The notes: a model not told the origin generated them from the sequence alone. A DNA stretch of 64,000 bases from Candidatus Bathyarchaeota archaeon (GCA_963697165.1 CAVOMX010000014.1:32001-96000); one strand, 5' to 3'; shown: positions 10,764 through 24,726, numbered from the stretch's first letter. Numbers and translations: made by a program.

Positions 10764-11975
10764 ATGGAAATATTAGCAATTGTACCGATTATTCTGATCG
10801 CCGCATTTCTACTCGGAGAGATGTTCAAGAGAATTGGATTGCCTTCTGTTGTCGGCCAGATCCTTGCAGGGTTATTGTTTGGAGTTCCAGCCATAAAGGA
10901 ACTGCTTTTTGGCGATGGATCAACCCTGATTATAATCGATTTTCTGGCTACACTTGGAGTATTGCTTCTCCTATTTCTGGCAGGATTAGAGATTGAAATC
11001 GAGAAAATAAAGGAAACCTCAAGAGACTCAATTCTCAGTATCTCTTAGCTCTGCATTAGTCCCATTCGCACTTGGGTTTTGTGTTCATAACGGTGTTTTT
11101 CCCCGAATACGGCTTTCTGTCGGCACTGATTTTTGGAGGAGCAATGATGGTCACGTCAGAAGGAACAAAAGTTAAGGTACTCATGGACTTTAACAGCTTA
11201 AACACCCGATTAGGAGCAGTAATGCTTGCTGCAGGAGCAATAGACGACGTTTTCGAGGTCCTGTTCTTGTCCGTTGTCGTGGTTTTCGCTAAAGGAGGAA
11301 GCCTATTTGACTTGGCGATGATTCCTGTAGAAATAATTATCTTCCTCATAGTCGCGTACATATCATTCAAAGATAATGTCTAAAGTCCTGCAGCATCTTG
11401 ACAAAAAACCGGAGAAGAAACAGGATTATTCTCCATAGTAATGATATTTGTCCTAGTTCTCGCAGCTCTCTCTGAATCTTTGAATGTAGGCTACTAATCG
11501 GTTCGATTCTTGGAGGTTTTCTTTTACAAATCTCCTCTAAGAGAAATCAGCAAACGAAACAAGAGAGAAATGTTAACGTAATCAAACTTATTGCATTGGG
11601 CTTTATTGTTCCGTTCTTCTTCGTCAACGTTGGATTAACCTTTGACTCGGCACATTATCCTCCAATCTGCCGCTAATCGTAGCTACAGTACTCATCGCAT
11701 TCTTTGGAAAAATGATAGGAACATTCATTATCAAACCAGTTTCCACACTGAGCTGGAAACAGCTCTACTATGTTGGCTGGGCAATGAACTCGAGAGGTGC
11801 AGCTGAGTTGGTTATTGCGTTGATTGCAATGCAATATGGCTTGATTTCTCTAGAGATTTTTTCGGCTCTCGTTGCAATGAGTATAGTAACTACTCTCATC
11901 TTTCCGCCAGTTCTCGCCAGAGGCATAAAGAGGAATCCGGGACTTATGGATGCAAAGGTAGATAGAAAACATTAA
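10764..11975 (+). pseudogene. CPA2/NapA-type cation:proton antiporter with several frameshifts (pseudogene or sequencing errors)
   Basis: Three fragments in different frames: VVGQILAG/LLFLAGLE, TS...GAIDD and MNSRGAAEL. Further breaks lie between 11370 and 11700. Confidence 0.75.
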
Positions 11976-12509: not shown

Positions 12510-13383
12510 TTATCTGACTATCAGCACTGAACTTCTTGCATGCATACTTATGTCGTCACTGACACTTCCAAGCAGGTATCTTCTTACGCTGCTTAATCCT
12601 CTACTTCCTACAACGATAAGGTCAACATTCGCCTTTTTTGCAACCTTGATTATTATTTCTGCGGGGCTGCCGTACTCTAGCATCTTGTCAAACGAAACTC
12701 CTTGGACTTTGGTTGATGCATCGTTTAGGATGCATTCGCCGACTGTTCCAACACAATCTACGACCTGCGGTCCTCCTATACGAATGAGCTTATCTTCTTC
12801 AACATGCAACAAAGCCAAGTTTGCGCTATAGATCTGGGCTAACTGAACAGCATACTCAAGCGCCTTTTCTGCATATTTAGAACCATCAACAGCCGTGAGT
12901 ATCTTCTCAACTTTTGGTTTCTGTTTAACTATAAGAACAGGGCATTCAGCATGCCTTGCAACCTTCTCCGTGATGCTTCCCAAAGAGTAACGCGCAGATT
13001 GATGTTTAGCACGATTGCCTATAACAACCAAATTGTACCCTTCATCCTTAACTAATTGAAGCAAGAATTCTGCCGGATCTTCGTAAGTAACCAGCCTAGC
13101 ATCGACATCTATACCAGCCTCTCTGAACATTTCCTCGGCGTTTCTGATGATTTGTTTGCCAGCCTTCAAATACGACTCATCAATTTTATGCAAGATTGAG
13201 GGAGGTAACTGATACTGGGCTTTTAGTTCAGGGTGCATAAATTCGTGGGAGATAACATGAACCACTGTTACTTTTGACTTGAACTTTTTTGCAATCGAAA
13301 AAGCAAGCATTTTGGCGTGAAGACAGGAATGCGAACCATCCACAGGAACAAGAATCTTCTTAAAAAGTTGCTTATCTGCTCAT
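12510..13383 (-). CDS. Tandem two-domain universal stress protein (likely +1 frameshift just after the ATG at 13383)
   Basis: Two USP domains (FKKILVPVDGS; KILTAVDGS; GSRGLSSVRRYLLGSVS). Confidence 0.9.
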
Positions 13384-13461
13384 TATCGTCACAGATACAT
13401 CTAACTTCCATTGGATATTTTAAGTTTCTCGAGTAACAACCTTAGCATATTCTCACAGAAT

Positions 13462-14968
13462 TCACAATTGGGCACCAAGTATGTGCCATAAATCAGTCTT
13501 GGTTAATATACCAACAATTTTTTTAGGATTAGCCTCATCAACAACTGCAATTCGCCCCACATCATGTATCCTCATCTTCTTGAAGGCATCCAACGCAAGC
13601 TCTTCAGGATAAATAACAACAGGATTCTTCGGCACAATATCATCGAATAAGAACATCATCACGTTTTTCTTTTTCAACCTTCACAACATCCTCCAATGCC
13701 ACAATACCAATGAAGTCTCCAGTCTCATCAACAACAGGATATCCAGTGTGATGATGCTTCGCCATGAAATCCAAGATTTGGCTTACAGTAAAATTGGGAG
13801 ACACTGTCTTGAGATTCTTTGACATAACATCTTTCACTTTGAATTGAGAAAGAACAGCTATTTCTTTTAAGGGGCGAACCGGCACAGGCACATAAGCTTC
13901 CTTCATCTCAGAAATTTCTTTCAGGGCAGTTCTTCTCTTTTGTACAGCGGTCTCAATCACATGGGCAAAGGCGTCTGGTTCAAGTTCTATTACTCCTGTG
14001 TTTATCACCCCAGCCTCCACAGCAGAATAAAAGAAGTCCTCTCCAGCCTTTGTTCTGATAATTACTGTAGACCACTCCTTGAGAGGATATGCGCTTCCGA
14101 CAGAAATGTCAGCCAGTTCTGAGGTAAAGTCGGTGCAGGTTTCACAGCTGGTCAAGATGTGTGGTTTAACTTCGGATAGTGGAACTTTTATGTTGCCTTT
14201 GTCTGTTTGAACCGTCAGTTCCTTTACGATGTCAAGCCGTTTTATCTCGTCGGGTTTAATGTTATAATTTTTTTCCAGGTAATCAAGCAGGCGCCCAAAA
14301 GAAAGTGTCCAGAAACAGAAGAGCCCTATTATCACCTTCAGGTTTCCTGTGATTTTGTGTTCCCAAGCCTCAAGTTTACGAAGGGCTAGCACATGACAGG
14401 GAACACCCACGAATGCAATGTTTGCTTTTCCGTATTCATACACTGCGCTTCCATACGCTCTAGCCACGGATGAGGGAAAGAATTTGCTGCCGACAGCAGA
14501 AAACACGTCGTCGGGAACCACCCCAACTAAAGCTTTAGGTTTAATAGGAATGTTTGTTTCCGCCTGAGAAACAATTGCGCTGTCTATTATTCCTTTGTCT
14601 ATGGCGTTTGTTAGAAGTGTGGTGACAATAGCGCCCCCATGACCCAGTTTTCTGAGTTCGGGGTCTGCTGCTTGGGCGAGTAATATTCTTCTGTAGTATC
14701 CTAAGCCTTCTCTTTTTAAGGGCGAGTCTGAAACAAATTTTAGACTCTCAGAAATAAGTTTCTCGGAGTGTGGGCAAATCTCGTAACATATAGGGCACGA
14801 GTCAATGTGTTTTGAGCAATCAAAGTGTTCAATTTTGTCTTCCCCTATGGTTATTGCATGAACTGGACATGCCGCTTCGCATGCCCCACAGAAGGTACAG
14901 AATCCAGAGTTGATGATTTTGCTTTCTAAGTCATTGTATGCTATAAGATTGTCTTTTTTTGTTGCCAC
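13462..14968 (-). CDS. FrhB/FpoF-family F420-binding flavoprotein with N-terminal 2[4Fe-4S] and C-terminal CBS pair (+1 frameshift near 13645)
   Basis: CTFCGACEAACP and CPICYEICP clusters; GGAIVT, VGVPCHV, IGLFC, CETCTDFTSELADISVG FrhB motifs; then VKDVMS...GYPVVD and GRIAVVD...VGILTKTDL CBS motifs. Confidence 0.88.
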
Positions 14969-15016
14969 AGAATCCCCTTAAATAATTTTATCATTCAAAC
15001 AAGTTAACATTTTTGG

Positions 15017-16499
15017 TTATACAGGTAAAAATGGTGTAACTGATGATAACAAATTGAGAACTAAATCAGGATATAGCCCAAGAATGACAATTATTACAAC
15101 CAAACAGTATATGGGCACCAGCAAGTTTCTCGGCTCTTTAATGTCCACGTCGTTCTTGGGATTTTTGGAATATAAGTAGTGTATCACTCTCAGGAAGTAG
15201 GCAGATTGGAGAACCGAGTTGAGGACACCTATCAATGCTAACCAAGCAACGCTCGACTGCAGAACGGAAGTGAAAACCATATACTTAGCAATAAAGCCTG
15301 CAAACAAGGGCACCCCAGAAAAAGACAATGCCGCACAAACAAACGCAAAACTTGTCAAAGGCATCTTTCGTCCCATACCAGACAAATCCTCAAATGTTGT
15401 CAAGCCCATTCTTCTGAATACGCCGATGACCATGAAGGCTAGAGAGGTTTCCATGGCTGCAACAAAGAAGAAGAACAGGTTGCCTGAAAGCCCAATAGAA
15501 GTGATGCTGGTAATCGCTATCAGATTGTAGCCGATGTCCGCAATACAGACGTATGCAATCATTCGCTTAACGTTTTGTTGTGCTAACGCAAACAGGTTTC
15601 CGACTGTCATGGTGAGCGCAGAGAATATTGCAACAGTAAATCTCCAATCGACAACTGCTGTGGGCGTCAGAATGAACAATAGAACTCTCAGCAGCACATA
15701 GTAGCTGCCTTGGTCTACGATAGCGGACAGGAAAGCTGAGGCAGAATCGGGGGCGGCAGTGTAAGCGTCGGGCATCCACATATGAAACGGAACAATAGCT
15801 GTTTCGATGGCATACCCTGCAATGATAAAAGCAAACGCTACCAACAGAAGCTGCGGATTCGCTGTTGTCAACAGAACTTCTTTGACAGTCCAGAAGTTAA
15901 GAGAACCAGTTAGACCGTACAATAATGATAGACCAAAAAGTATGAAACCAGAAGCTATGATAACCATGACCAAATATTTTAGGGCAGCCTCAAGTGATTC
16001 TCGGGATTTTTTGTAGGCTACAAGAAAACAGGAGCCTGCCGCTGTTGCCTCCCAAAAGATGAAAACAGTAAGCAAGTCGCCTGAAAAGGTAGCCGCTATT
16101 ACTGTGCCGGTTACGATAAGCAGGAGAGCATAGTATCTTTCGGACAGACTCTCATTTGGACTTACGTGCAGGACAGCATACAGGCATGCAATCGTGCCCA
16201 CCACCATATAGGCTATTACCATGTAAACTGAAACCGTGTCTACTAGAAACACTGTTGATAGTGGTGCCAAAATCGTGTCTGTGGAAGAGATTTGAAGAAA
16301 CGATTGCGATTGACCAAAGTATTCTGTTGCTATGCGGAAAACGCCCACTGCTGCTGCGGAAAAAGTGAGAAGTATCCAAGCTACCATGAAATGTTGAGGA
16401 TTAAGTTTGGTCTTTCTCACAAGTCGTAGGAAGTGGAACGGTGAGTAGAGAACAAACCGTGAAGACTATTGTAGGTAAAAGAACGTCAATTATATTCAT
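15017..16499 (-). CDS. NuoN-like antiporter subunit of the hydrogenase complex (+1 frameshift near 16430)
   Basis: EAALKY, PFHMWMPDAY, KRMIAY, GVPLFAGFIAK. The ATG at 16499 is 79 nt upstream of the called start. Confidence 0.87.
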
Positions 16500-16514
16500 T
16501 AGTTGTAAGCCTCG

Positions 16515-17985
16515 TCATATTGATGTAACAGCATGAATCAGGTCTATGAAAATCCCAGGATAAATTCCCAATATCACAACAAAAGCTGCCAGAGCAATCA
16601 TTGCAACAATCATGTATATGGGGGGGTCTTTAATGTCATCTCTCTGGACTTTAGGAGATTCTAAGAAGACTTTCCAGAAGTACCTTAGGACATATGCTAG
16701 ACTGAAAACGGTTGCAATAAGCATCAAAACAGTAGGCAAATAATATGAACCGTCTGCGCCAGCCGCAGTAACAGCCCCAACAAAAATGTGGAACTCGCTT
16801 ATGAAGCAGGCAAATGGGGGAATGCCGCCTATGCTGAATGCTGCAATAGCAGTGGCTATCGCGGTTAGGGGCATCTTTGACGCTAAACCTCCCATGTCTT
16901 TGATGTTTCTTACGCCAGTCTGGTGCATAACTGCGCCAGCAGTCAAGAAGAGAAGCCCCTTGCTTGCTGCGTGATTAACTAAATGGAGTACACCGCCAGT
17001 GATTCCCTCGGCAAAAGGAAAGAGGGACAACGCAAACAGGACGTATCCCATGTGGCTTATGCTAGAATATGCGATTATTCGTTTGATGTCAGTTTCTGCC
17101 AACGCAAGGAAAGACCCATAAAAGGCTGATAATACTCCAAAAAAGCTTAACACTAGCAAGAATTCGTTCCCAGTGGGCATCATCGCAGAATATACGGTTC
17201 CAAGAGCTATCCTCAAAACAGCGTATCCTCCTGCCCCAATTATTACTCCACTGAGGAGTGCAGACATGGGTGCGGGTGCTTCACCGTGCGCGTCTGGAAG
17301 CCACATGTGAAGGGGAACAATAGCCATCTTCACAGCGAATCCTGCAGTGAAGGATATCAGCACCCAATTCAGGATACCAGGGTCTACATTGGCCAGAAGG
17401 ACTTGGGCTTCGAATATGTCAAGGGTGCCAGTAAGCATGTATATAGCGCCGATGCCTAAGAGAACAAAGATTGCTCCGGCATGGGTGAAGATGAAGAATT
17501 TGAAGGCGGTTTTGAAGGAGTCTCTGTATCCCCATCCACCTATGATGAAGTATGTTGGAACAAGCATGAGTTCCCAACAGAAATAGAAGAGCAGCAGATT
17601 GGATGTGATGAAAACTCCAACCAGTCCTATTGTGAGTAAACTCATTAATGCGTAGTATGCTGGAAGCGATTTTTTTTCTTCCATATAGTTTATGGAATAG
17701 ACCGTTGATGCTGCAACAAGTATTAGCGTAACAATAGCCAATGACAGGCTTATTCCGTCAACGAAAAGTGTGAAAGCGGAACCTAATGTCGGTATCCAAT
17801 AATATGATTCTATGTATTGTCCTTCATTAAGAACTGTGGGTATCAAGCGTCAGAAGAAGAGACAAACTGACTATAGAGAGTAAGGTGAGAATCAAGGCGG
17901 CGGTTTTCGCAGATTTTTTGCCAACACCATACACTATTGGAATAGCCAGAGCGGGCAACATCAGAGCAATTAATAATGTTTGCAT
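16515..17985 (-). CDS. NuoM-like antiporter subunit (+1 frameshift near 17848)
   Basis: FVDGIS, WELMLVPTY, PLHMWLPDAHGEAP, IAYSSISHMG. The N-terminal TM helices start at ATG 17985. Confidence 0.88.
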
Positions 17986-17992
17986 TTTTGTT

Positions 17993-20094
17993 TTACCTCA
18001 AAGCAGTTAATAATAGCAAAATAATGATTAGGAAGAAGCCGAGCATGGCTGCCAAAACAAAGTCAGGTAGTGGTCCACGGTGCATCTTCTTGATTTTCTG
18101 TCCGTGCTCAACCGTTTTTCCTGCAAACAGATAGACCAGATTATCCAAGAATGAATCAATATATTCATGGGTTACCCGCGCAGTCTCCACTGGTTCCACC
18201 CGCCAAAATATAGCTTAAGCGGTCTAGGAAAGATTCAAGGTGCACATGTGTGTTGTGAGCAGTAATCACGGCTCCACCAGCTATGATATAAACGAACCTG
18301 TCAAGAAATGATTCTATGTAATCGTGAGTACCATGGGCAATCCTCAAAGCCCCGCCTGCAACAAGATAAGGAAATTGTTGCAACCCAGACATTTCAATGA
18401 TACTGTATGTAACCTGCGCCAAACCCATGACTCCATTCAATAGTTTATTGTAAACGGCATCGAAGTAATAGCCGTTGGATATTAAAAGATAAAGCGGTTT
18501 GTTTAAAAAACTTCTTGCAGAAACCATGGCAGTATCTCTCTTCTTGTAGTAAAGATAGTAGGCTGTAGATAAGCCAACAGCGAGGATTATAGCTGATGTT
18601 AAACTCGCCAAAATGACGCCATTGAATGAAGCTTCAAAGGGTATCGCAAGGTAATGCTCTAAGGGAGTCTTGAAGAAACCTGCGATACAGGAGGCAGCGG
18701 CTAACAGGACAAGGGGTACAGTTATTGTTGGTTTAGGATCATGCAATTGATGGTGCTCAAGATGCTCTGATTTCTTTCCGAGGAAAACCAGAGATATCCA
18801 TCTAATACTGTAGATGGCTGTTAACACAGATGTTCCGAAAATCAAAATGAAAAGTGGAATGTTATTAGCTAAGATTATGGCTTCGAATATAGTGTCTTTG
18901 CTCCAGAAACCGCTGAAAGGCGGAATACCGGCAAGCGAAAACGCGCCGATAACACTCACTATGAAGGTTATAGGCATCTCTTTTCTTATGCCTCCAAGCT
19001 GTTTCAGATCAAGAGTGTGAGTAATATGCATTACAACTCCAGCACAAAGGAACAAAAGCGACTTGAAGAGGGCGTGGCTGAGTACGTGGAATTGACTAGC
19101 GAACCAGCCTAGTTCAGTTCCTATGCCTAGGGCGGCCATTATCATGCCCAACTGGCTTATTGTAGAAAATGCTAGAACCCGTTTCAGGTCTGAGCTGGTC
19201 AATGCCATGGTTGCTGCAAGGAAAGCCGTGATTCCTCCGATGTATGTAATTGTGGTTAACCATGGCTGCACCAAAGAGAAGAGAATGTAGATTCTTGCCA
19301 CAAGATAGATTCCCGCTTTAACCATTGTTGCACCATGGATGAGGGCACTAGTCGGTGTTGGTCCTTCCATGGCGTTCGGAAGCCAAACATGTAATGGAAA
19401 TTGGGCAGATTTGCCTATAGCCCCAATCAACATCAAAACGGACACTGCTAACATTGGAACTGAAACTTGCCCAGCTGCTATAAGATCGCGGATTTCAAGA
19501 AAGTCGAATGTTCCAGTGTTCACGTATAGAAGCAGTATTCCGAGTAGTAGAAAAATGTCTCCGATTCTTGTTACGATGAAGGCTTTCATGCCTGCCTTGG
19601 CTGATTCAGGTCTAGTGTACCAGAATCCGATGAGGGCATATGAGCATAATCCAACGGTTTCCCAGAACATGTACATCTGTAGAAGATTGTTTGCCATAAC
19701 TAAGCCAATCATTCCACCGACGAAAAGAAGCATGAAGAAAAAGAATCTGGGAGTTCCTTTTTCTTTTTCCATATAGTTAACGGAGTAAATCATGATTAGC
19801 AGTCCAACACAGGCTGCAATGTTTGCCATCATGATGCTTAACGGGTCGATGAGGACGCTAAGGTTGATTTTCATGGATTGCATCCAAGGCATAGAATACA
19901 GTTGCGCTTCGCCATGAGCGTTGATTACGCTGGGAATAAGCGAGACAGTGTTAACAGCAGAAACAAGAGTGACTAAAACTGCGTACCAGCCAACGCTTCT
20001 ACGCCGAAACTTGGCTACCAAAGGTATAAACAATGATCCGACAAATGGAATTGCCCAACATAGCCAGGCTGCGTACTCGGCTGGAATCAGAATG
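17993..20094 (-). CDS. NuoL-like antiporter subunit with repeat-extended lateral helix (+1 frameshift near 18192)
   Basis: DPLS, WETVGLCSYALIGF, GKSAQFPLHVWLPNAMEGPTP, HALFK, YYFD. The hydrophobic N-terminus appears to begin near ATT/CTG about 20094, so the start is uncertain. Confidence 0.87.
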
Positions 20095-20424
20095 CTAGTT
20101 TTCCTCCACCATTTGGTTTTCTTGTTCAGATGGCTGTTCTTTTATTTCCGACAGTTCTCTGACATCACGGATATTTAGTTTTTTGTAGATAGAAATAGCA
20201 AGTGTAAGAGCAACAGCCGTTACACAGGCGTCAACAGATAAGGCAAGAATCGAGAAAGTTTGACCTAAAGGATCCCCCATTAATGAGCCAAAAACAACAA
20301 AATTCATTGTTGCTGCCGCAGTAAGCATTTCTATTGCGATCAGCATTTTTATCAAGTCATGCTTTGTAACCAAGCCGACTATTCCAATCGCTAGAATTGT
20401 AACAGCCAGTATTATGTAATCCAC
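20095..20424 (-). CDS. NuoK-like subunit
   Basis: IKMLIAIEML, three TM helices, position in the operon. Confidence 0.85.
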   Translation of the reverse strand: MDYIILAVTILAIGIVGLVTKHDLIKMLIAIEMLTAAATMNFVVFGSLMGDPLGQTFSILALSVDACVTAVALTLAISIYKKLNIRDVRELSEIKEQPSEQENQMVEEN

Positions 20425-20425
20425 T

Positions 20426-20905
20426 TTAGTTTCTCCTCCGTTCCTCCTTCAAAAGGAGCACTACGCCAAGCGCAGCCGTCAAAACGACTAAACCTTGAGC
20501 AAGAACATCAATCGCCCTCAAGTCCCATAATGCACTTGATAGTGACAAATCCAATGAGCTAGTAAAAGTTTGGGTTGCCACAGTTCCAACAACTACTGGA
20601 ACAGAAAGAATTGCAGAAACAATTAAACCCATGAATATCGTTTTGGTGGATGTTTTCGTGTCGCTTTTCTTGGTTAACGAATCACCAGCAAGAAGAAAAA
20701 TCGCTGCAGTTCCAGTGCCTAACGCCAACTGGAAGATTGCAGCGAAAGGCGCATTTAAGCTAAAGTAGAGCAATGAAAGCAATATCATCATTGTGCTTAG
20801 AGACAAAACCGAAGACACGGTTTCCTTCAAGTATATCGCAAAAACCGCAGAGGTCACCATACCAATAGCCAGAACTGTTTCAAGCCACATACTATTTTCC
20901 CTCAT
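20426..20905 (-). CDS. NuoJ-like subunit
   Basis: LYFSLNAPFAAIFQ, five hydrophobic segments, position in the operon. Confidence 0.82.
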   Translation of the reverse strand: MRENSMWLETVLAIGMVTSAVFAIYLKETVSSVLSLSTMMILLSLLYFSLNAPFAAIFQLALGTGTAAIFLLAGDSLTKKSDTKTSTKTIFMGLIVSAILSVPVVVGTVATQTFTSSLDLSLSSALWDLRAIDVLAQGLVVLTAALGVVLLLKEERRRN

Positions 20906-21287
20906 CTGTAGTAGATTTTTGTTTAATAATAAATTCCTCTGGATTTATCAGCATCTCTTCCTTTTCTGTTGTTGACATCTCAAAATTTGTGGATAGCTTT
21001 ATTGCCTCTCTTGGGCAGCTTTCCGCGCATTGATAACAAAATACGCAGCGGTCAAGGTAAAACTTTGGCATCCGTTTCCCAGAAACTTCCACAAGTTCTA
21101 TAGCATTAGCGGGACAGTCCCGCTCGCATAAGCCGCAGCTGATGCACTTTTCAGGATAGAAAACGTGCCTGCCTCGGTAGCCTTCAGGAGCTTCTACCTT
21201 TACAGCGGGATACTCACGAGTGAAGGACTTCTTGAAGATACATGAGCCCATGTCTTTTATCAGTGATGGTAATCGTAGTTTAGTCAC
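20892..21287 (-). CDS. NuoI-like 2[4Fe-4S] subunit
   Basis: FTREYP, YRGRH, CISCGLCERDCP and CVFCYQCAESCP. Confidence 0.92.
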   Translation of the reverse strand: MTKLRLPSLIKDMGSCIFKKSFTREYPAVKVEAPEGYRGRHVFYPEKCISCGLCERDCPANAIELVEVSGKRMPKFYLDRCVFCYQCAESCPREAIKLSTNFEMSTTEKEEMLINPEEFIIKQKSTTDEGK

Positions 21288-21298
21288 ACTTTTTCCTC

Positions 21299-22291
21299 CT
21301 AACCAATCACCGACCGCAACAACGGTTCAATAATTATTGTAATAGCAAGAGATAAAATAGACAAGGGAATCATAAATTTCCAGTTGCCATGAACAACCTG
21401 ATCTATCCGTAATCTGGCAGACACATTACCGACATACTCTAGAACAAACACTACTCCAAGTGTTTTAACCATGAACCAGAAAGCATACCAGAGTTCAGGT
21501 GGTCCAATCAGCACGGGTCCATGAGCTCCACCTAAGAACAACATAGTTACAAGAGATGCACCAACCAGGAACTGAAAATCTTCTGCAAGTTTTATAAAAG
21601 CCAATTTTCTTCCACTGAACTCCGTTTCGTAACCTCCCACAATTTCGGTTTCTGCATGAGGAATATCGAAAGGATCCTTCTCTAACTCAGCCTGTAAGAC
21701 AATAATAAACAAGAAACAAGACCAAGGAATCAGAAGAGCAAAAGGAATAGATTGGCTCGCCGTAATATTCACAATGGACAAGCTTTTTGCAAGAAAAGCG
21801 GGACCAATCGCGAGAAGAATAAGAGGTATGTCGTATCCGAGAAACTGGGTCAGAACTCTGGTTGCGCCAATCCCGCTGTACGGATTCAAAGAAGCCCAAC
21901 CGGCAAGGAATATAGCAAAGTTTGCGAGAGATACAATAAGCAAAACTAGAAGCAAATCTCCCTCGAAACTCGAATTCAAAATCACATTTGAACCATCGAT
22001 CGGGATATAGAAAAGACCAAAAACATAGAGTGAAAACGCAAGAATTGGAGCTGCCACAAATAGCAGTTTGTTGGTATTCTTTGGAGTAATATCTTCATTC
22101 GAGAACAGTTTTATGTAATCGGCAATGGGTTGAAGAATACCAAATGGACCGGCATAAGAGGGACCCATACGGTTCTGAAACCGAGCTGCAACCTTTCTTT
22201 CAAACCAGTCAAAAAATAGAACTAGCACCAAGAGAAAGATGAAACCCGGAAACACCAGTGCCCTTACAATAAAAAGGAGATCAATAGCCAT
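21299..22291 (-). CDS. NuoH-like membrane subunit
   Basis: ERKVAARFQNRMGP, GILQPIADYIKL, PFDIPHAETEIVGGYETEFSG, ARLRIDQ. Confidence 0.93.
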   Translation of the reverse strand: MAIDLLFIVRALVFPGFIFLLVLVLFFDWFERKVAARFQNRMGPSYAGPFGILQPIADYIKLFSNEDITPKNTNKLLFVAAPILAFSLYVFGLFYIPIDGSNVILNSSFEGDLLLVLLIVSLANFAIFLAGWASLNPYSGIGATRVLTQFLGYDIPLILLAIGPAFLAKSLSIVNITASQSIPFALLIPWSCFLFIIVLQAELEKDPFDIPHAETEIVGGYETEFSGRKLAFIKLAEDFQFLVGASLVTMLFLGGAHGPVLIGPPELWYAFWFMVKTLGVVFVLEYVGNVSARLRIDQVVHGNWKFMIPLSILSLAITIIIEPLLRSVIG

Positions 22292-23965
22292 CTAGATCAA
22301 CGCCTTCCGGTTTATAGAATTGTTTACGTCGTCAAGGCTCCAATGCCATTTCTGACCATTTTTGGTATCAATGAATGCCATACGGTCAGTGCAAGAAAAG
22401 CATGGGTCTAAGCTTCCCATCACAGAGGGAATATCAGCGATGTGGGCACCCCTAATTGCATCTGGAAATGCCATAAGGTTAGCTAAGGTTGGAGCTCTGA
22501 CCTTAACTCTGTAAGGATAGGCGGTTCCATCACTTTTAACATAATGGATAAGCTCGCCTCTCGGAGCCTCAACACGGCTAACAGCCTCACCTTCAGGTAT
22601 TTTTCGTTGAACCCTAACCCGCAAACGACCCCCTGGAATGTGACGAAGCGCATATTCTAGTATATCCAAGCTTTCCAGTACTTCTTCAGCTCGAACCATC
22701 AGCCGAGCCCATGTGTCACACTCCTTATAGCTCACTACATTGAAAGGAATTTCCCCATACGCCGCGTAAGGGTCATCTTTTCTGACATCAACAGCAATTC
22801 CTGACCCACGTGCAACAGGACCAACAACACATAATTTCAAAGCATCTGCTCTGTTCAATACGCCGACCCCTTCGGTTCTCATCCTCAATGTCGGGTCTTC
22901 ATCGAATACCTTCTTGTAGAAAGTCGCCCGTTTCCTGACATCTTTGACTGTCTTCAGAGTCTTCTCAATTGTACTTGGGTCTATATCTCGTCTTACTCCG
23001 CCGATTGTGTTGAACCCGCACATCAGTCGGTTTCCCGTGATTCGTTCGATTATATCCATTACAGGTTCTCTGTCACGCCACACATGCTGGAATAGTGCTT
23101 CAAAACCAAGCAGGTGACCGCCAACTCCAAGCAATAGGAGGTGACTATGAACTCTGTTTAGCTCATGTATAATAGTACGTAAGTATAATGCACGAGGCGG
23201 AGTCTCAATGTTTCCGATGTCCTCAACAGCTTGACAGAAGACAGTTGTGTGAGCAGCATTACAGATACCACAAATTCTCTCCACCAAAAACACGTCTTGG
23301 AAGTACATCATGCGCTCAGCCGCTTTCTCAATACCCCTATGAACATATCCAAGACGCGGCTCAACATCCACAACCGTTTCCCCATCAACTTTGAAGTTGA
23401 ATCTTTCTGGCTCATGCAAAACTGGATGCTGAGGCCCTACAACGACGTTAATTATCGACCCAGAATCATCTTCCGCTGATTCAGTCTGCGAAGCTTTCTC
23501 AGAACTGAAAGCAATTTCTTGGTTAACCGGAGGCTTCCAATCTTTTCTAAGAGGATAATTTCCTTGAGGCCAATTCTCAGGAAGCAACAACCTTTCCAGA
23601 TTTGGATGACCCTCAAAAGCGACTCCTAAGAGGTCAAAGACTTCCCGCTCATACAAATTTGCTCCGGGCAGGATGTCAGTAATCGTTTGGGTAACAGGGT
23701 TTTCTCGAGAAACACGGTTCTTGAGGGTTATGGTTCCCGCACAAGCCATGTGATAGTTTAACTCGATCTCGTTTCCTAAATCAACGCCACTTATTGTCGA
23801 AAGCTCCACGTCCTCAACTTGTGTTAGGAGCAACGAGATTGCATCTCTGTGACGTTCAGGTTTAAGAAGAATGTAGGCTTTCCTTGGCCTAGGGACTCTA
23901 CACTCGAGAATCGAATCAGCCAAATTATTCTTGAGAACTTCTACAGCATTTTCGAACGTGTTCAT
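22292..23965 (-). CDS. Fused NuoC-NuoD-like [NiFe] hydrogenase large subunit (group 4)
   Basis: NuoC part: YEREVFDLLG...GHPNL...YPLRKD. Large-subunit part: GPQHP, HRGIEK, intact metal motifs ERICGIC and DPCFSCTDR. Confidence 0.92.
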   Translation of the reverse strand: MNTFENAVEVLKNNLADSILECRVPRPRKAYILLKPERHRDAISLLLTQVEDVELSTISGVDLGNEIELNYHMACAGTITLKNRVSRENPVTQTITDILPGANLYEREVFDLLGVAFEGHPNLERLLLPENWPQGNYPLRKDWKPPVNQEIAFSSEKASQTESAEDDSGSIINVVVGPQHPVLHEPERFNFKVDGETVVDVEPRLGYVHRGIEKAAERMMYFQDVFLVERICGICNAAHTTVFCQAVEDIGNIETPPRALYLRTIIHELNRVHSHLLLLGVGGHLLGFEALFQHVWRDREPVMDIIERITGNRLMCGFNTIGGVRRDIDPSTIEKTLKTVKDVRKRATFYKKVFDEDPTLRMRTEGVGVLNRADALKLCVVGPVARGSGIAVDVRKDDPYAAYGEIPFNVVSYKECDTWARLMVRAEEVLESLDILEYALRHIPGGRLRVRVQRKIPEGEAVSRVEAPRGELIHYVKSDGTAYPYRVKVRAPTLANLMAFPDAIRGAHIADIPSVMGSLDPCFSCTDRMAFIDTKNGQKWHWSLDDVNNSINRKALI

Positions 23966-23971
23966 AGTTTG

Positions 23972-24385
23972 CTATCCCTTCAATTTTCCAAGTAATTTCG
24001 CGACACCCTGCACTATTGCTTCGGGTTTTGGAGGACACCCCGGAATATAAACATCAACAGGAATTATCTCATCGAGACGCTTACTCACACCGTAACATCC
24101 TTGAAATATTCCTCCGGAACAGGCGCAGGCTCCTATTGCTAGAACAAATTTTGGTGAGGGCATTTGCTGATAAATCATCTCGAGTCGTGGTGCACACTGC
24201 TTAGTAACAACTCCGGTTACCACAAGAACGTCTGCATGACGAGGTGAGGGCTCAAGTTTCACACCGAAACGTTCAACATCGTATCTGGGCGTCAGCAGCG
24301 CAACAACTTCAATATCGCATCCATTGCATGCTCCGGTATTGAAGTGAAGCAGCCATGGCGAGTTTATTCTAGCCCATTTCACCAA
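23972..24385 (-). CDS. NuoB-like hydrogenase small subunit
   Basis: GACNGCDIE (CxxC, hydrogenase type), SPRHAD, GACA, IPGCPP. Confidence 0.92.
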   Translation of the reverse strand: MVKWARINSPWLLHFNTGACNGCDIEVVALLTPRYDVERFGVKLEPSPRHADVLVVTGVVTKQCAPRLEMIYQQMPSPKFVLAIGACACSGGIFQGCYGVSKRLDEIIPVDVYIPGCPPKPEAIVQGVAKLLGKLKG

Positions 24386-24402
24386 GCCTAAGTCTGGCGT
24401 CT

Positions 24403-24726
24403 TTAGTAGCCTCCCATAAGCAGTAGGTCTGCTGCTAAAATTATACCCAAATAAATTAACAAAGAGAAGGGGTTGATAATCTCTAGAGCTAAGGCTGCAA
24501 AAGCCAATATCAACGCAGGGGAGTCTATTATAACAAAGAATATGAGGTACTTATAGAGAGTAACATTAACCAACAGCCTTTTTGAGAACACTTTTTCTCC
24601 ACATGCATACATTGCGCTTTTTTCTTCGTTAGCAGGAGATTTTTTTGTTAACAAGCCGCTGGACAAGTAAATCAATGAAGCAATGAACAAGATAATTAGA
24701 AAAGCAACAAGAGACTCTACAAGCAA
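24403..24726 (-). CDS. NuoA-like subunit
   Basis: YACGE loop motif, YLIFFVIID, three TM helices, first gene of the operon. Confidence 0.82.
   Translation of the reverse strand: MLVESLVAFLIILFIASLIYLSSGLLTKKSPANEEKSAMYACGEKVFSKRLLVNVTLYKYLIFFVIIDSPALILAFAALALEIINPFSLLIYLGIILAADLLLMGGY

What the first reader, a model, noticed from the sequence alone, without database searches (positions are those of the whole stretch)
13462..24726. Fpo-like [NiFe] energy-converting hydrogenase with its own F420-binding (FrhB/FpoF) subunit fused to CBS domains
Seen in sequence: gene order A-B-CD-H-I-J-K-L-M-N as in complex I/Fpo. The large subunit keeps both NiFe motifs (RICGIC, DPCFSC) and the small subunit has CxxC. 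About 48 nt after N, co-oriented, is an FrhB-family gene with 2[4Fe-4S] and a C-terminal CBS pair, then a tandem USP. Established: FrhB/FpoF proteins bind FAD and F420; CBS pairs bind adenosyl ligands; Fpo-like group 4 hydrogenases occur in Bathyarchaeia and are usually assumed to use ferredoxin. Inference: an ion-translocating H2/F420 oxidoreductase whose input module is gated by adenylate energy charge. F420H2 and H2 have close redox potentials, so directional control would be useful. I know no characterised complex with this architecture.
Basis: partly seen in the sequence, partly recalled or inferred. Interest (0 to 1): 0.82.

Follow-up and report, generated by a model that had tools for sequence, protein, structure and literature searches.

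The report
Archaeal hydrogenase with extra flavoprotein subunit
A known but never purified complex-I-shaped membrane hydrogenase of Bathyarchaeia (Hfo) appears to carry an overlooked extra iron-sulfur flavoprotein subunit with a nucleotide-sensing tail, but whether that subunit really uses coenzyme F420 is doubtful and can now be tested.

Summary
The operon is real. It is Hfo, the 11-subunit [NiFe] hydrogenase of Bathyarchaeia described in 2021 (PMC7886697). This scan has noted it, and the neighbouring flavoprotein gene, before on other DNA.

The ferredoxin-FrhB-CBS gene is frameshifted between its two CBS domains here, but intact in 27 of 29 relatives.

Evidence that it is a hydrogenase subunit:
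- It lies beside hydrogenase genes in 43 of 61 loci, in five layouts; paralogues 0 of 18.
- 96 of 101 genomes that have it also have the large subunit.
- A co-fold docks it on HfoI (0.64, best control 0.01) through a family-specific W-x-H-K loop.

Evidence against the F420 reading:
- Four FAD/F420-site motifs are missing in 60-61 of 61 orthologues but kept in 15-19 of 19 paralogues.
- Only cofE was found, not cofC, cofD, cofG or cofH.
- The gene probably has its own promoter.
- 83 genomes with a related large subunit lack it.

Verdict: an optional twelfth subunit is likely (about 0.75-0.8). F420 as its substrate is about 0.4, and adenylate gating is untested. New variant of a known kind.

The parts
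24403..24726 (-). hfoA (NuoA-like membrane subunit)
   Evidence: Pfam Oxidored_q4, 30.5 bits, above cut-off 23.3
23972..24385 (-). hfoB, small subunit with CxxC (CNGC)
   Evidence: Pfam Oxidored_q6, TIGR01957
22292..23965 (-). hfoCD, fused C domain and [NiFe] large subunit; L1 RICGICNAAH, L2 DPCFSCTDR, 29-residue tail
   Evidence: best solved relatives are E. coli HycE (7Z0S) and P. furiosus MbhL (6CFW), ahead of NuoD
21299..22291 (-). hfoH (NuoH-like)
   Evidence: Pfam NADHdh
20892..21287 (-). hfoI, 2x[4Fe-4S]; residues 47-56 and 90-94 form the predicted docking site
   Evidence: TIGR01971 best match; co-fold interface
20426..20905 (-). hfoJ
   Evidence: Pfam Oxidored_q3, E 1e-7, just under cut-off; 69% to the intact relative
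20095..20424 (-). hfoK
   Evidence: Pfam Oxidored_q2
17993..20102 (-). hfoL, antiporter-like; frameshift near 18190 in this assembly
   Evidence: TIGR01974 above cut-off; frame change
16515..17985 (-). hfoM, antiporter-like; frameshift near 17850 in this assembly
   Evidence: TIGR01972 above cut-off
15017..16499 (-). hfoN, antiporter-like; frameshift near 16420 in this assembly
   Evidence: TIGR01770 best match; frame change
15002..15016 (-). conserved BRE/TATA-like motif in the 48-nt gap; probable own promoter of the FrhB-like gene
   Evidence: strict pattern in 13 of 18 genus loci with upstream DNA, at a fixed distance from the downstream gene, 0 of 9 in other families; genome-wide TTWAW peak 35-44 nt before starts; BRE/TATA consensus recalled
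13640..14968 (-). ferredoxin (8 Cys) + FrhB-fold domain (4 Cys, remodelled FAD/F420 site, W202-x-H204-K205 loop) + first CBS domain
13462..13650 (-). second CBS domain, out of frame in this assembly, in frame in most relatives
12510..13391 (-). tandem universal stress protein; follows the FrhB-like gene in this genus only, not shown to belong to the complex
   Evidence: Pfam Usp x2; directly downstream in 21 of 21 genus loci and 0 of 9 other-family loci

Best explanation
The ten genes encode Hfo, an 11-subunit ion-translocating [NiFe] hydrogenase (shown by sequence). The next gene encodes an optional twelfth, peripheral subunit. Its ferredoxin domain and a family-specific W-x-H-K loop dock on HfoI at the outer Fe-S cluster, where NuoG or ferredoxin feeds complex I (predicted, not shown). 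This extends the wire from the NiFe site through HfoB and HfoI to two ferredoxin clusters, the FrhB cluster and a flavin (inferred). The flavin most likely exchanges hydride with coenzyme F420 that the cell salvages and re-glutamylates with CofE (inferred; the weakest step). With three antiporter subunits the complex cannot pump on F420H2-to-H2 energy. It would therefore run backwards: ion influx drives H2-dependent F420 reduction at very low H2, at the cost of ATP, and the CBS pair would switch this drain off at low energy charge (inferred).
For: Linkage: within about 7 kb of hydrogenase genes in 43 of 61 orthologue loci, in five layouts (after N 20, after I or H 7, before A 11, divergent from A 3, near L/M 2); paralogues 0 of 18. 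Gaps of 6-21 nt after hfoI in 5 of 7 loci of that layout. Co-occurrence in 272 genomes of the order: 96 both, 5 FrhB-like only, 83 large subunit only, 88 neither (kin are not independent). Co-fold: score 0.64, best control 0.01; runs agree in at least 60% of contacts; partner pLDDT at least 81; the mark was reached by 116 of 157 solved and 2 of 215 mismatched pairs. Interface residues W202 (60/61) and H204 (61/61) are near-invariant in orthologues; at those columns 0 of 19 paralogues have W or H. This loop aligns with the start of the Fsr loop 171-189 that binds ferredoxin domains. HfoI C91 corresponds to the N6a ligand (PMC9783039). Same ferredoxin+FrhB build as the F420-reductase subunits of ethanotroph CODH and Fwd (8RIU is the best sequence hit). 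Flavin-side residues G112 (58/61), K162 (54/61), D287, S289, G291 (61/61) and the cluster cysteines are kept. cofE in 10 of 10 genomes tested; Mtd in G000. In G004, G005 and G016, which have Mer, it is the only FrhB-family protein found.
Against: The motifs QxGG, CxE, the GK turn of IGKGK and GS.G occur in 0, 0, 1 and 0 of 61 orthologues, against 19, 15, 18 and 19 of 19 paralogues. All four F420-active structures seen in alignment (8RIU, 9R51, 3ZFS, 6QGR) keep them. cofG 0 of 5, cofH 0 of 41, cofD 7 of 41, cofC 1 of 5 over cut-off, none of these in G000. G000 has a second, canonical FrhB fused behind nuoE/nuoF-like genes that could handle F420 instead; G004 and G005 have Fno. Eight bearer genomes had neither Mer over cut-off nor Mtd (G007, G009, G021 excluded as partial; e.g. 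G009, G026, G037, G040). About one ion suffices to reduce F420 at 10 Pa H2, so a 3-4 ion machine would be wasteful (ion number recalled from complex I). 17 of 61 loci show no hydrogenase gene nearby. Like ferredoxin-FrhB interfaces have been solved (Fsr, FwdG-FwdI, FrhG-FrhB), so the co-fold may pass by likeness.
Confidence: 0.4

Rival explanations
1. The subunit docks on HfoI and keeps its flavin, but the remodelled pocket serves a substrate other than F420: another carrier or a small molecule reduced with low-potential electrons from reverse ion flow. The FrhB-fold enzymes HCAR and BciB work this way with ferredoxin (their chemistry is recalled).
For: Family-wide loss of four canonical motifs and a bulky residue plus proline (A-Y-P) where FrhB has V-G-S. 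No de novo F420 pathway found. Reverse flow of 2-4 ions reaches -450 to -600 mV, which suits a lower-potential acceptor better than F420. HCAR shares the fold (Z 21.7, rmsd 4.2, 311 aligned). CBS-less members occur outside Bathyarchaeia in genomes where cofD was not found (0 of 8).
Against: No candidate substrate gene travels with it. cofE is present in 10 of 10 bearers tested. Closest sequences and folds are F420 enzymes. I could not see the same motifs in FdhB, FpoF or HCAR, so I do not know how well their loss predicts loss of F420 use.
Confidence: 0.25
2. The protein is a soluble ferredoxin-linked flavoprotein, like free FpoF/FqoF, that is merely co-regulated and clustered with Hfo. Hfo stays an 11-subunit ferredoxin/H2 enzyme, as Loh et al. 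proposed, and any electrons pass through free ferredoxin.
For: Probable own promoter. Unlinked in 17 of 61 loci and in 13 of 13 loci from the non-Bathyarchaeia families f27/f50 and close metagenome relatives. 83 of 179 genomes with a related large subunit lack it. A soluble ferredoxin:F420 role for FqoF is cited in PMC10667645.
Against: Co-fold pass with controls near zero, and a near-invariant family-specific loop at the interface. Linkage is kept through several rearrangements, including 6-nt gaps after hfoI. HfoI keeps R93 in 36 of 37 linked sequences against 2 of 11 I subunits of other group 4 operons (confounded by ancestry).
Confidence: 0.2
3. The protein docks on HfoI but does no hydride chemistry. 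It is an Fe-S relay or electron buffer, or a regulatory cap that opens or blocks the ferredoxin site according to the nucleotide bound to its CBS pair.
For: The G-x-K-Y flavin loop is variable in deep branches (G160 in 42/61, replaced by D or E in 19). The interface loop is better conserved than the flavin pocket. The first FrhB cluster cysteine is His in 4 of 61.
Against: All 12 cysteine positions and D287-S289-G291, K162 and W299 are strongly kept. CBS-less orthologues exist near the hydrogenase (L102, L103, L201, L202), so regulation cannot be the only role.
Confidence: 0.15

Closest known systems
Hfo, Fpo-like 11-subunit group 4g [NiFe] hydrogenase of Bathyarchaeia (Loh, Herve, Brune 2021, PMC7886697; also noted for Ca. 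Bathyarchaeum tardum, PMC10477458)
   Same: Same 11 subunits in Fpo/Nuo order, with L1 and L2 motifs intact. The named record L044 (Ca. B. tardum) has the same operon including the FrhB-CBS gene.
   Different: Loh et al. state that the F420 module FpoFO is absent and leave the source of F420H2 open. Neither paper's passages that I saw mention an FrhB-fold or CBS gene at the cluster. In the large genus g19 the large subunit is in 72 of 81 genomes but this gene in 23 of 81, which could explain why it was missed (inference).
Ehi-1 of Methanonezhaarchaeia (PMC12700198)
   Same: A group 4 [NiFe] hydrogenase flanked by frhB, proposed to oxidise F420H2. The general idea is therefore in print as a hypothesis.
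   Different: Its Table S4 lists an Mbh/Mrp-type cluster (MnhF, MnhG, MnhC, MbhK) with two frhB genes; no CBS is mentioned; the host makes F420. I did not compare the sequences.
F420-reductase subunits zeta (CODH, 8RIU) and FwdI (8RJA) of Ca. Ethanoperedens; N-terminal half of Fsr (PMC11493965, PMC10229431)
   Same: Ferredoxin (2x[4Fe-4S]) + FrhB domain docked on a normally ferredoxin-dependent enzyme; best sequence hit, E 9e-50; fold Z 27.4, rmsd 4.1, 320 aligned.
   Different: Those are soluble and shown to use F420; 8RIU keeps QxGG, CxE, the GK turn and GS.G. None has a CBS pair. Here the partner is a membrane pump.
Fpo/Fqo with FpoF/FqoF (F420H2:phenazine or quinone oxidoreductase)
   Same: Same core subunits, with an FrhB-fold input module at the NuoI position (recalled).
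   Different: FpoD has lost the NiFe ligands and the acceptor is a membrane carrier. The protein here scores 102 against the FpoF cut-off of 475.

Membership tests
Hfo (Loh et al. 2021) | 11 subunits A-B-C-D-H-I-J-K-L-M-N in Fpo/Nuo order | tested here: met
   L, M and N carry probable assembly frameshifts and are intact in relatives
Hfo (Loh et al. 2021) | L1 C[GS][ILV]C[AGNS]xxH and L2 [DE][PL]Cx[AGST]Cx[DE][RL] in the D subunit | tested here: met
   RICGICNAAH and DPCFSCTDR against the patterns; closest solved chains HycE and MbhL
Hfo (Loh et al. 2021) | large subunit in HydDB subgroup 4g (lineage next to 4g-6) | not testable with these tools
   no HydDB or reference set held
Hfo (Loh et al. 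2021) | no true FpoF or NuoEFG in the cluster | tested here: met
   the adjacent gene is far below the FpoF cut-off; nuoE/F-like genes lie on another contig
[NiFe] hydrogenase maturation | Hyp proteins and an endopeptidase in the genome | tested here: inconclusive
   HypF over cut-off in 5 of 5 including G000; other hyp genes recognised by eye only; HycI in 3 of 5, not found in G000, which is 81% complete
FrhB/FpoF F420-binding flavoproteins | FrhB fold with PC...C...CxxC [4Fe-4S] ligands | tested here: met
   Pfam PF04422 and PF04432 above cut-off; C191 57/61, C218, C275, C278 61/61; Z 28.8, rmsd 2.6, 274 aligned to 6QGR
FrhB/FpoF F420-binding flavoproteins | curated family cut-offs (TIGR03289, NF006807, NF040616, NF006808) | tested here: not met
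   165/331.5, 185/269, 102/475, 107/444 bits; note that a canonical-motif paralogue also stays just below
FrhB/FpoF F420-binding flavoproteins | conserved FAD and F420-channel motifs: QDGG, loop 131-138 (CxE), 163-IGKGK turn (PMC3930138, PMC3591093), and the GS.G loop (my own pick from the alignments) | tested here: not met
   0, 0, 1 and 0 of 61 orthologues vs 19, 15, 18 and 19 of 19 paralogues and 91, 68, 75 and 79 of 106 library representatives; no F420-bound structure was seen in the papers read, so these motifs are proxies
FrhB/FpoF F420-binding flavoproteins | FAD content and F420 oxidoreductase activity | not testable with these tools
   needs purified protein
F420-producing organism | cofC, cofD, cofE, cofG, cofH | tested here: inconclusive
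   G000: cofE over cut-off; the other four not found. G000 is 81% complete, but the pattern holds in near-complete relatives (cofH 0 of 41, cofD 1 of 24 in the genus), and PMC10477458 reports F420-synthesis deficiencies in Ca. B. tardum
Adenylate-binding CBS pair (Bateman module) | two CBS domains with G-h-h-[TSA]-x-x-D sites (motif recalled) | tested here: met
   in 50 full-length orthologues at least one site in 50 and both in 22; here the second CBS is out of frame
Adenylate-binding CBS pair (Bateman module) | ligand identity and allosteric effect | not testable with these tools
   structural neighbours bind AMP, ATP, SAM or c-di-AMP alike
Ehi-1 (Methanonezhaarchaeia) | Mbh/Mrp-type membrane module (MnhF, MnhG, MnhC) with flanking frhB | tested here: not met
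   Table S4 of PMC12700198 against the J-K-L-M-N module here

The most novel reading that the evidence does not exclude
Hfo in about half of its bearers is a 12-subunit machine in which an FrhB-fold flavoprotein with a rebuilt active site sits where NuoG or FpoF sits in respiratory complexes. It uses the ion gradient to drive electrons from H2 straight into a two-electron acceptor that is not F420 and not yet known, and a CBS pair switches it by energy charge. That would be a membrane hydrogenase with its own nucleotide-gated reductase head, and a living intermediate between ferredoxin-linked hydrogenases and Fpo/complex I.
Probability: 0.2. Interest if true: 0.82.

Novelty: new variant of a known kind. 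Interest (0 to 1): 0.56.

Why it matters
Bathyarchaeia are abundant in anoxic sediments. No group 4g hydrogenase had been characterised as of Loh et al. 2021, who left open where these cells get F420H2. A docked flavoprotein head names a concrete electron partner for Hfo and gives residues to test (W202/H204 on the head; C91-R93 on HfoI). It also bears on how an input module was added on the way from hydrogenases to Fpo and complex I. The remodelled pocket warns that automatic 'F420 hydrogenase beta subunit' labels on this family may be wrong. A soluble 56-kDa protein and a cultivated member of the class make the test feasible.

Tried and rejected
RNA evidence: no RNA holder was listed for the region, so no reads were laid; this says nothing on expression or on the frameshifts.

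The bacterial promoter/terminator scan gave chance-level counts (19 vs 24.8; 14 vs 11.0) and does not cover archaeal promoters.

AlphaFold2 models were of moderate quality (pLDDT 64 and 66; ferredoxin domain under 50) and were used only for fold searches.

The tree is the quick version, as the careful search did not finish. A script slip put the second, paralogous FrhB of L097 into the row named L097_afterN; that row should be ignored. The tree puts 16 of 17 unlinked loci in one 32-row clade (100% SH-aLRT) that also holds linked ones. That is compatible with secondary loss of linkage, but no root test was run. 5 of 5 unlinked genomes tested still hold the large subunit elsewhere.

I could not view FdhB, FpoF, Fsr or HCAR residue by residue over the F420-channel loops, so the motif test is calibrated on four structures only.

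Linkage outside Bathyarchaeia failed in families f27 and f50, though it holds in f47 (L199, L200).

Mer, Mtd and Fno profiles did not track the gene. G019 has Mer but no FrhB-family protein, Fno or Hfo was found, so 'only FrhB in the genome' is a weak argument.

The tandem USP was rejected as part of the complex because it is genus-specific.

A word search of earlier scan findings gave nothing.

Literature searches for the architecture: (FrhB + CBS domain + energy-converting hydrogenase) 0 papers; searches showed no report of it. Subscription papers are largely missing, and I saw only parts of two papers' supplements.

Full report
Observation. The minus strand from 24726 to 15017 carries ten genes matching NuoA, B, CD, H, I, J, K, L, M and N. 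The CD protein keeps both nickel motifs, and its closest solved relatives are HycE and MbhL, ahead of NuoD. HypF is in the genome. 48 nt after N begins a 442-codon ORF with an 8-cysteine ferredoxin domain, both FrhB Pfam domains and one CBS domain; the second CBS is in another frame. One extra base near 13645 explains this against 4 of 4 aligned relatives. L, M and N are also frameshifted in this 81%-complete assembly, while the second CBS is wholly in frame in 18 of 20 genus relatives and 9 of 9 others. I read the breaks as assembly errors; no reads were available.

What is known. Named relatives are Bathyarchaeia, the nearest named ones Ca. Bathyarchaeum. The operon is Hfo of Loh et al. 2021 (PMC7886697; I saw passages, the whole section on hydrogen, and hits in Table S2). 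They state that FpoFO is absent and that the source of F420H2 is unclear. Qi et al. likewise say fpoFO is lacking (PMC8407382, passages). The Ca. B. tardum paper notes Hfo, deficiencies in F420 synthesis and dependence on a methanogen (PMC10477458, passages). A group 4 hydrogenase flanked by frhB and proposed to oxidise F420H2 is in print for Methanonezhaarchaeia (PMC12700198, passages and part of Table S4), with a different membrane module. Passages of PMC11237513, PMC10667645, PMC11697101, PMC10321748, PMC8518648 and PMC9723716 did not report the FrhB-CBS neighbour. A search for FrhB + CBS domain + energy-converting hydrogenase gave 0 papers. Three earlier notes of this scan reached the Hfo reading on other genomes and two flagged the flavoprotein gene; they came after my reading was formed and are not counted as support.

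Does the gene belong to the hydrogenase? The scan of species genomes kept the best 80 of 181 confirmed stretches (79 loci). Of 61 orthologue loci, 43 have hydrogenase genes nearby: after N (20), after I or H of a differently arranged operon (7), before A (11), divergent from A (3), near L/M (2). 17 have none in the DNA held and 1 has no upstream flank; 0 of 18 paralogue loci have any. Some loci are near-copies or repeat genomes already seen. 5 of 5 unlinked genomes tested have the large subunit elsewhere. Over 272 genomes of the order, 96 have both, 5 only the FrhB-like gene, 83 only a related large subunit and 88 neither. So the gene rarely occurs without the hydrogenase, while the hydrogenase often occurs without it: an optional module. 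Kinship inflates any test on these counts, and the large-subunit threshold also takes in other group 4 enzymes. In this genus a motif resembling BRE-TATA (consensus recalled) sits at a fixed distance from the gene in 13 of 18 loci, where the genome's TTWAW peak lies. The gene thus probably has its own promoter, which does not exclude read-through.

Does it touch the complex? Co-folding HfoI (1-122) with residues 5-365, each with a 37-row alignment, scored 0.64, 0.64 and 0.60; the best of three controls scored 0.01. Runs agreed in at least 60% of contacts, with partner pLDDT at least 81. The mark was reached by 116 of 157 solved and 2 of 215 mismatched pairs. The contacts join HfoI 47-56 and 90-94 to the ferredoxin domain (33-36, 54-60) and to W202-E203-H204-K205. 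C91 corresponds to the N6a ligand of complex I (PMC9783039, passages); that N6a is the entry cluster from NuoG is recalled. W202 (60/61) and H204 (61/61) are near-invariant in orthologues and absent from paralogues. The loop aligns with the start of the Fsr loop that binds ferredoxin domains (PMC10229431, passages). Similar interfaces are solved, so the pass may reflect likeness; it supports binding and does not show it.

Is it an F420 enzyme? The fold is FrhB (Z 28.8, rmsd 2.6, 274 aligned), and the domain build is that of the F420-reductase subunits of ethanotroph CODH and Fwd (PMC11493965, passages). But the motifs that surround FAD and line the F420 channel in FrhB (PMC3930138, PMC3591093, passages) are rebuilt. 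QxGG is in 0 of 61, CxE in 0, the GK turn in 1 and GS.G in 0, against 19, 15, 18 and 19 of 19 paralogues (the 61 rows are the window plus 60 locus ORFs aligned over more than 270 residues at more than 42% identity). G112, K162, D287, S289, G291, W299 and the cysteines are kept, so a flavin is still likely. G000 has cofE and a contig-end mtd; cofC, cofD, cofG and cofH were not found. The same holds in most near-complete relatives (cofH 0 of 41, cofD 7 of 41, cofG 0 of 5, cofC 1 of 5), which fits salvage of F420. G000 also has a second FrhB with all four motifs, fused behind nuoE/F-like genes 8 kb from cofE, an alternative route for F420. CBS-less members of the subfamily occur in two other families of the phylum, unlinked to a hydrogenase; cofE was found in 5 of 5 tested and cofD in 0 of 8.

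Energetics. With E0' of -414 mV for H2 (recalled) and -340 to -380 mV for F420, F420H2-to-H2 yields 9-22 kJ/mol at 1-10 Pa, or 0.6-1.5 ions at 150 mV. A tightly coupled pump with three antiporter subunits cannot run forward on that. Run backwards, one ion already reaches -371 mV and 2-4 ions reach -446 to -596 mV. If the partner is F420, the likely direction is gradient-driven reduction, an ATP drain for which a CBS switch makes sense. The overshoot is also an argument for a lower-potential, unknown acceptor. The CBS pair keeps at least one G-h-h-[TSA]-x-x-D site in 50 of 50 and both in 22 of 50 full-length orthologues (motif recalled). It is absent in some hydrogenase-linked orthologues, so it is an add-on.

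Verdict. Hfo is known. A docked, optional FrhB-fold subunit is likely (about 0.75-0.8). Its use of F420 is my single best guess (0.4 overall), ahead of a non-F420 substrate (0.25), a soluble co-regulated enzyme (0.2) and a non-catalytic relay or cap (0.15). New variant of a known kind; interest 0.56.

Noticed in passing
genus relatives G000-G024: Mer and Mtd are nearly mutually exclusive in this genus: Mer only in 13 genomes, Mtd only in 6, both in 3, neither in 3 of 25 (partial Mer matches in G002 and G021 counted). This suggests a split methyl branch of the Wood-Ljungdahl pathway.
   Followed up: no
L216:2544-6393 (G000:C17:46544-50393): nuoE-like, nuoF-like and [2Fe-2S]-ferredoxin-FrhB genes in a row, with canonical F420-site motifs, 8 kb from cofE: a candidate soluble NAD(H):F420 oxidoreductase, possibly bifurcating.
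   Followed up: partly
G000 and relatives: cofE is found in 10 of 10 genomes tested while cofC, cofD, cofG and cofH are mostly not found: F420 salvage, or another role for CofE.
   Followed up: partly
L186-L189, L193-L198, L205: CBS-less members of the same divergent FrhB subfamily outside Bathyarchaeia (one cluster member is labelled Ca. Methanomethylicus), unlinked to a hydrogenase, several beside queC/queT-like genes; in G060 it is the only FrhB-family protein found.
   Followed up: partly
L033, L034, L038, L039, L079, L081, L082, L204: A second operon layout, B-C-D-H-I followed by the FrhB-CBS gene with separate C and D; where flank allows (L033, L079) the K, L and N genes lie on the opposite strand. 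In L204 the hyp genes lie next to it.
   Followed up: partly
L035:11762-12235, L069:11578-12075, L059:11564-12073, L093:7265-7717: A small DUF1622 membrane gene sits next to FrhB-CBS, between it and hfoA in L035 and L069, and stays beside it in L059 where no hydrogenase gene is near.
   Followed up: partly
L054, L056, L057, L058, L060, L063, L091: Where unlinked from the hydrogenase, the gene is often followed by an aconitase and often preceded by an Mrp/NUBPL Fe-S carrier ATPase gene (families confirmed on L058 and L056).
   Followed up: partly
window 10764-11975: A Na+/H+ exchanger gene in several pieces; with four frameshifts in the operon, this shows how indel-prone the assembly is.
   Followed up: partly
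L036, L037, L041 (alignment A1): One lineage has His in place of the first FrhB cluster cysteine (P-H-Q for P-C-H); 4 of 61 rows.
   Followed up: no
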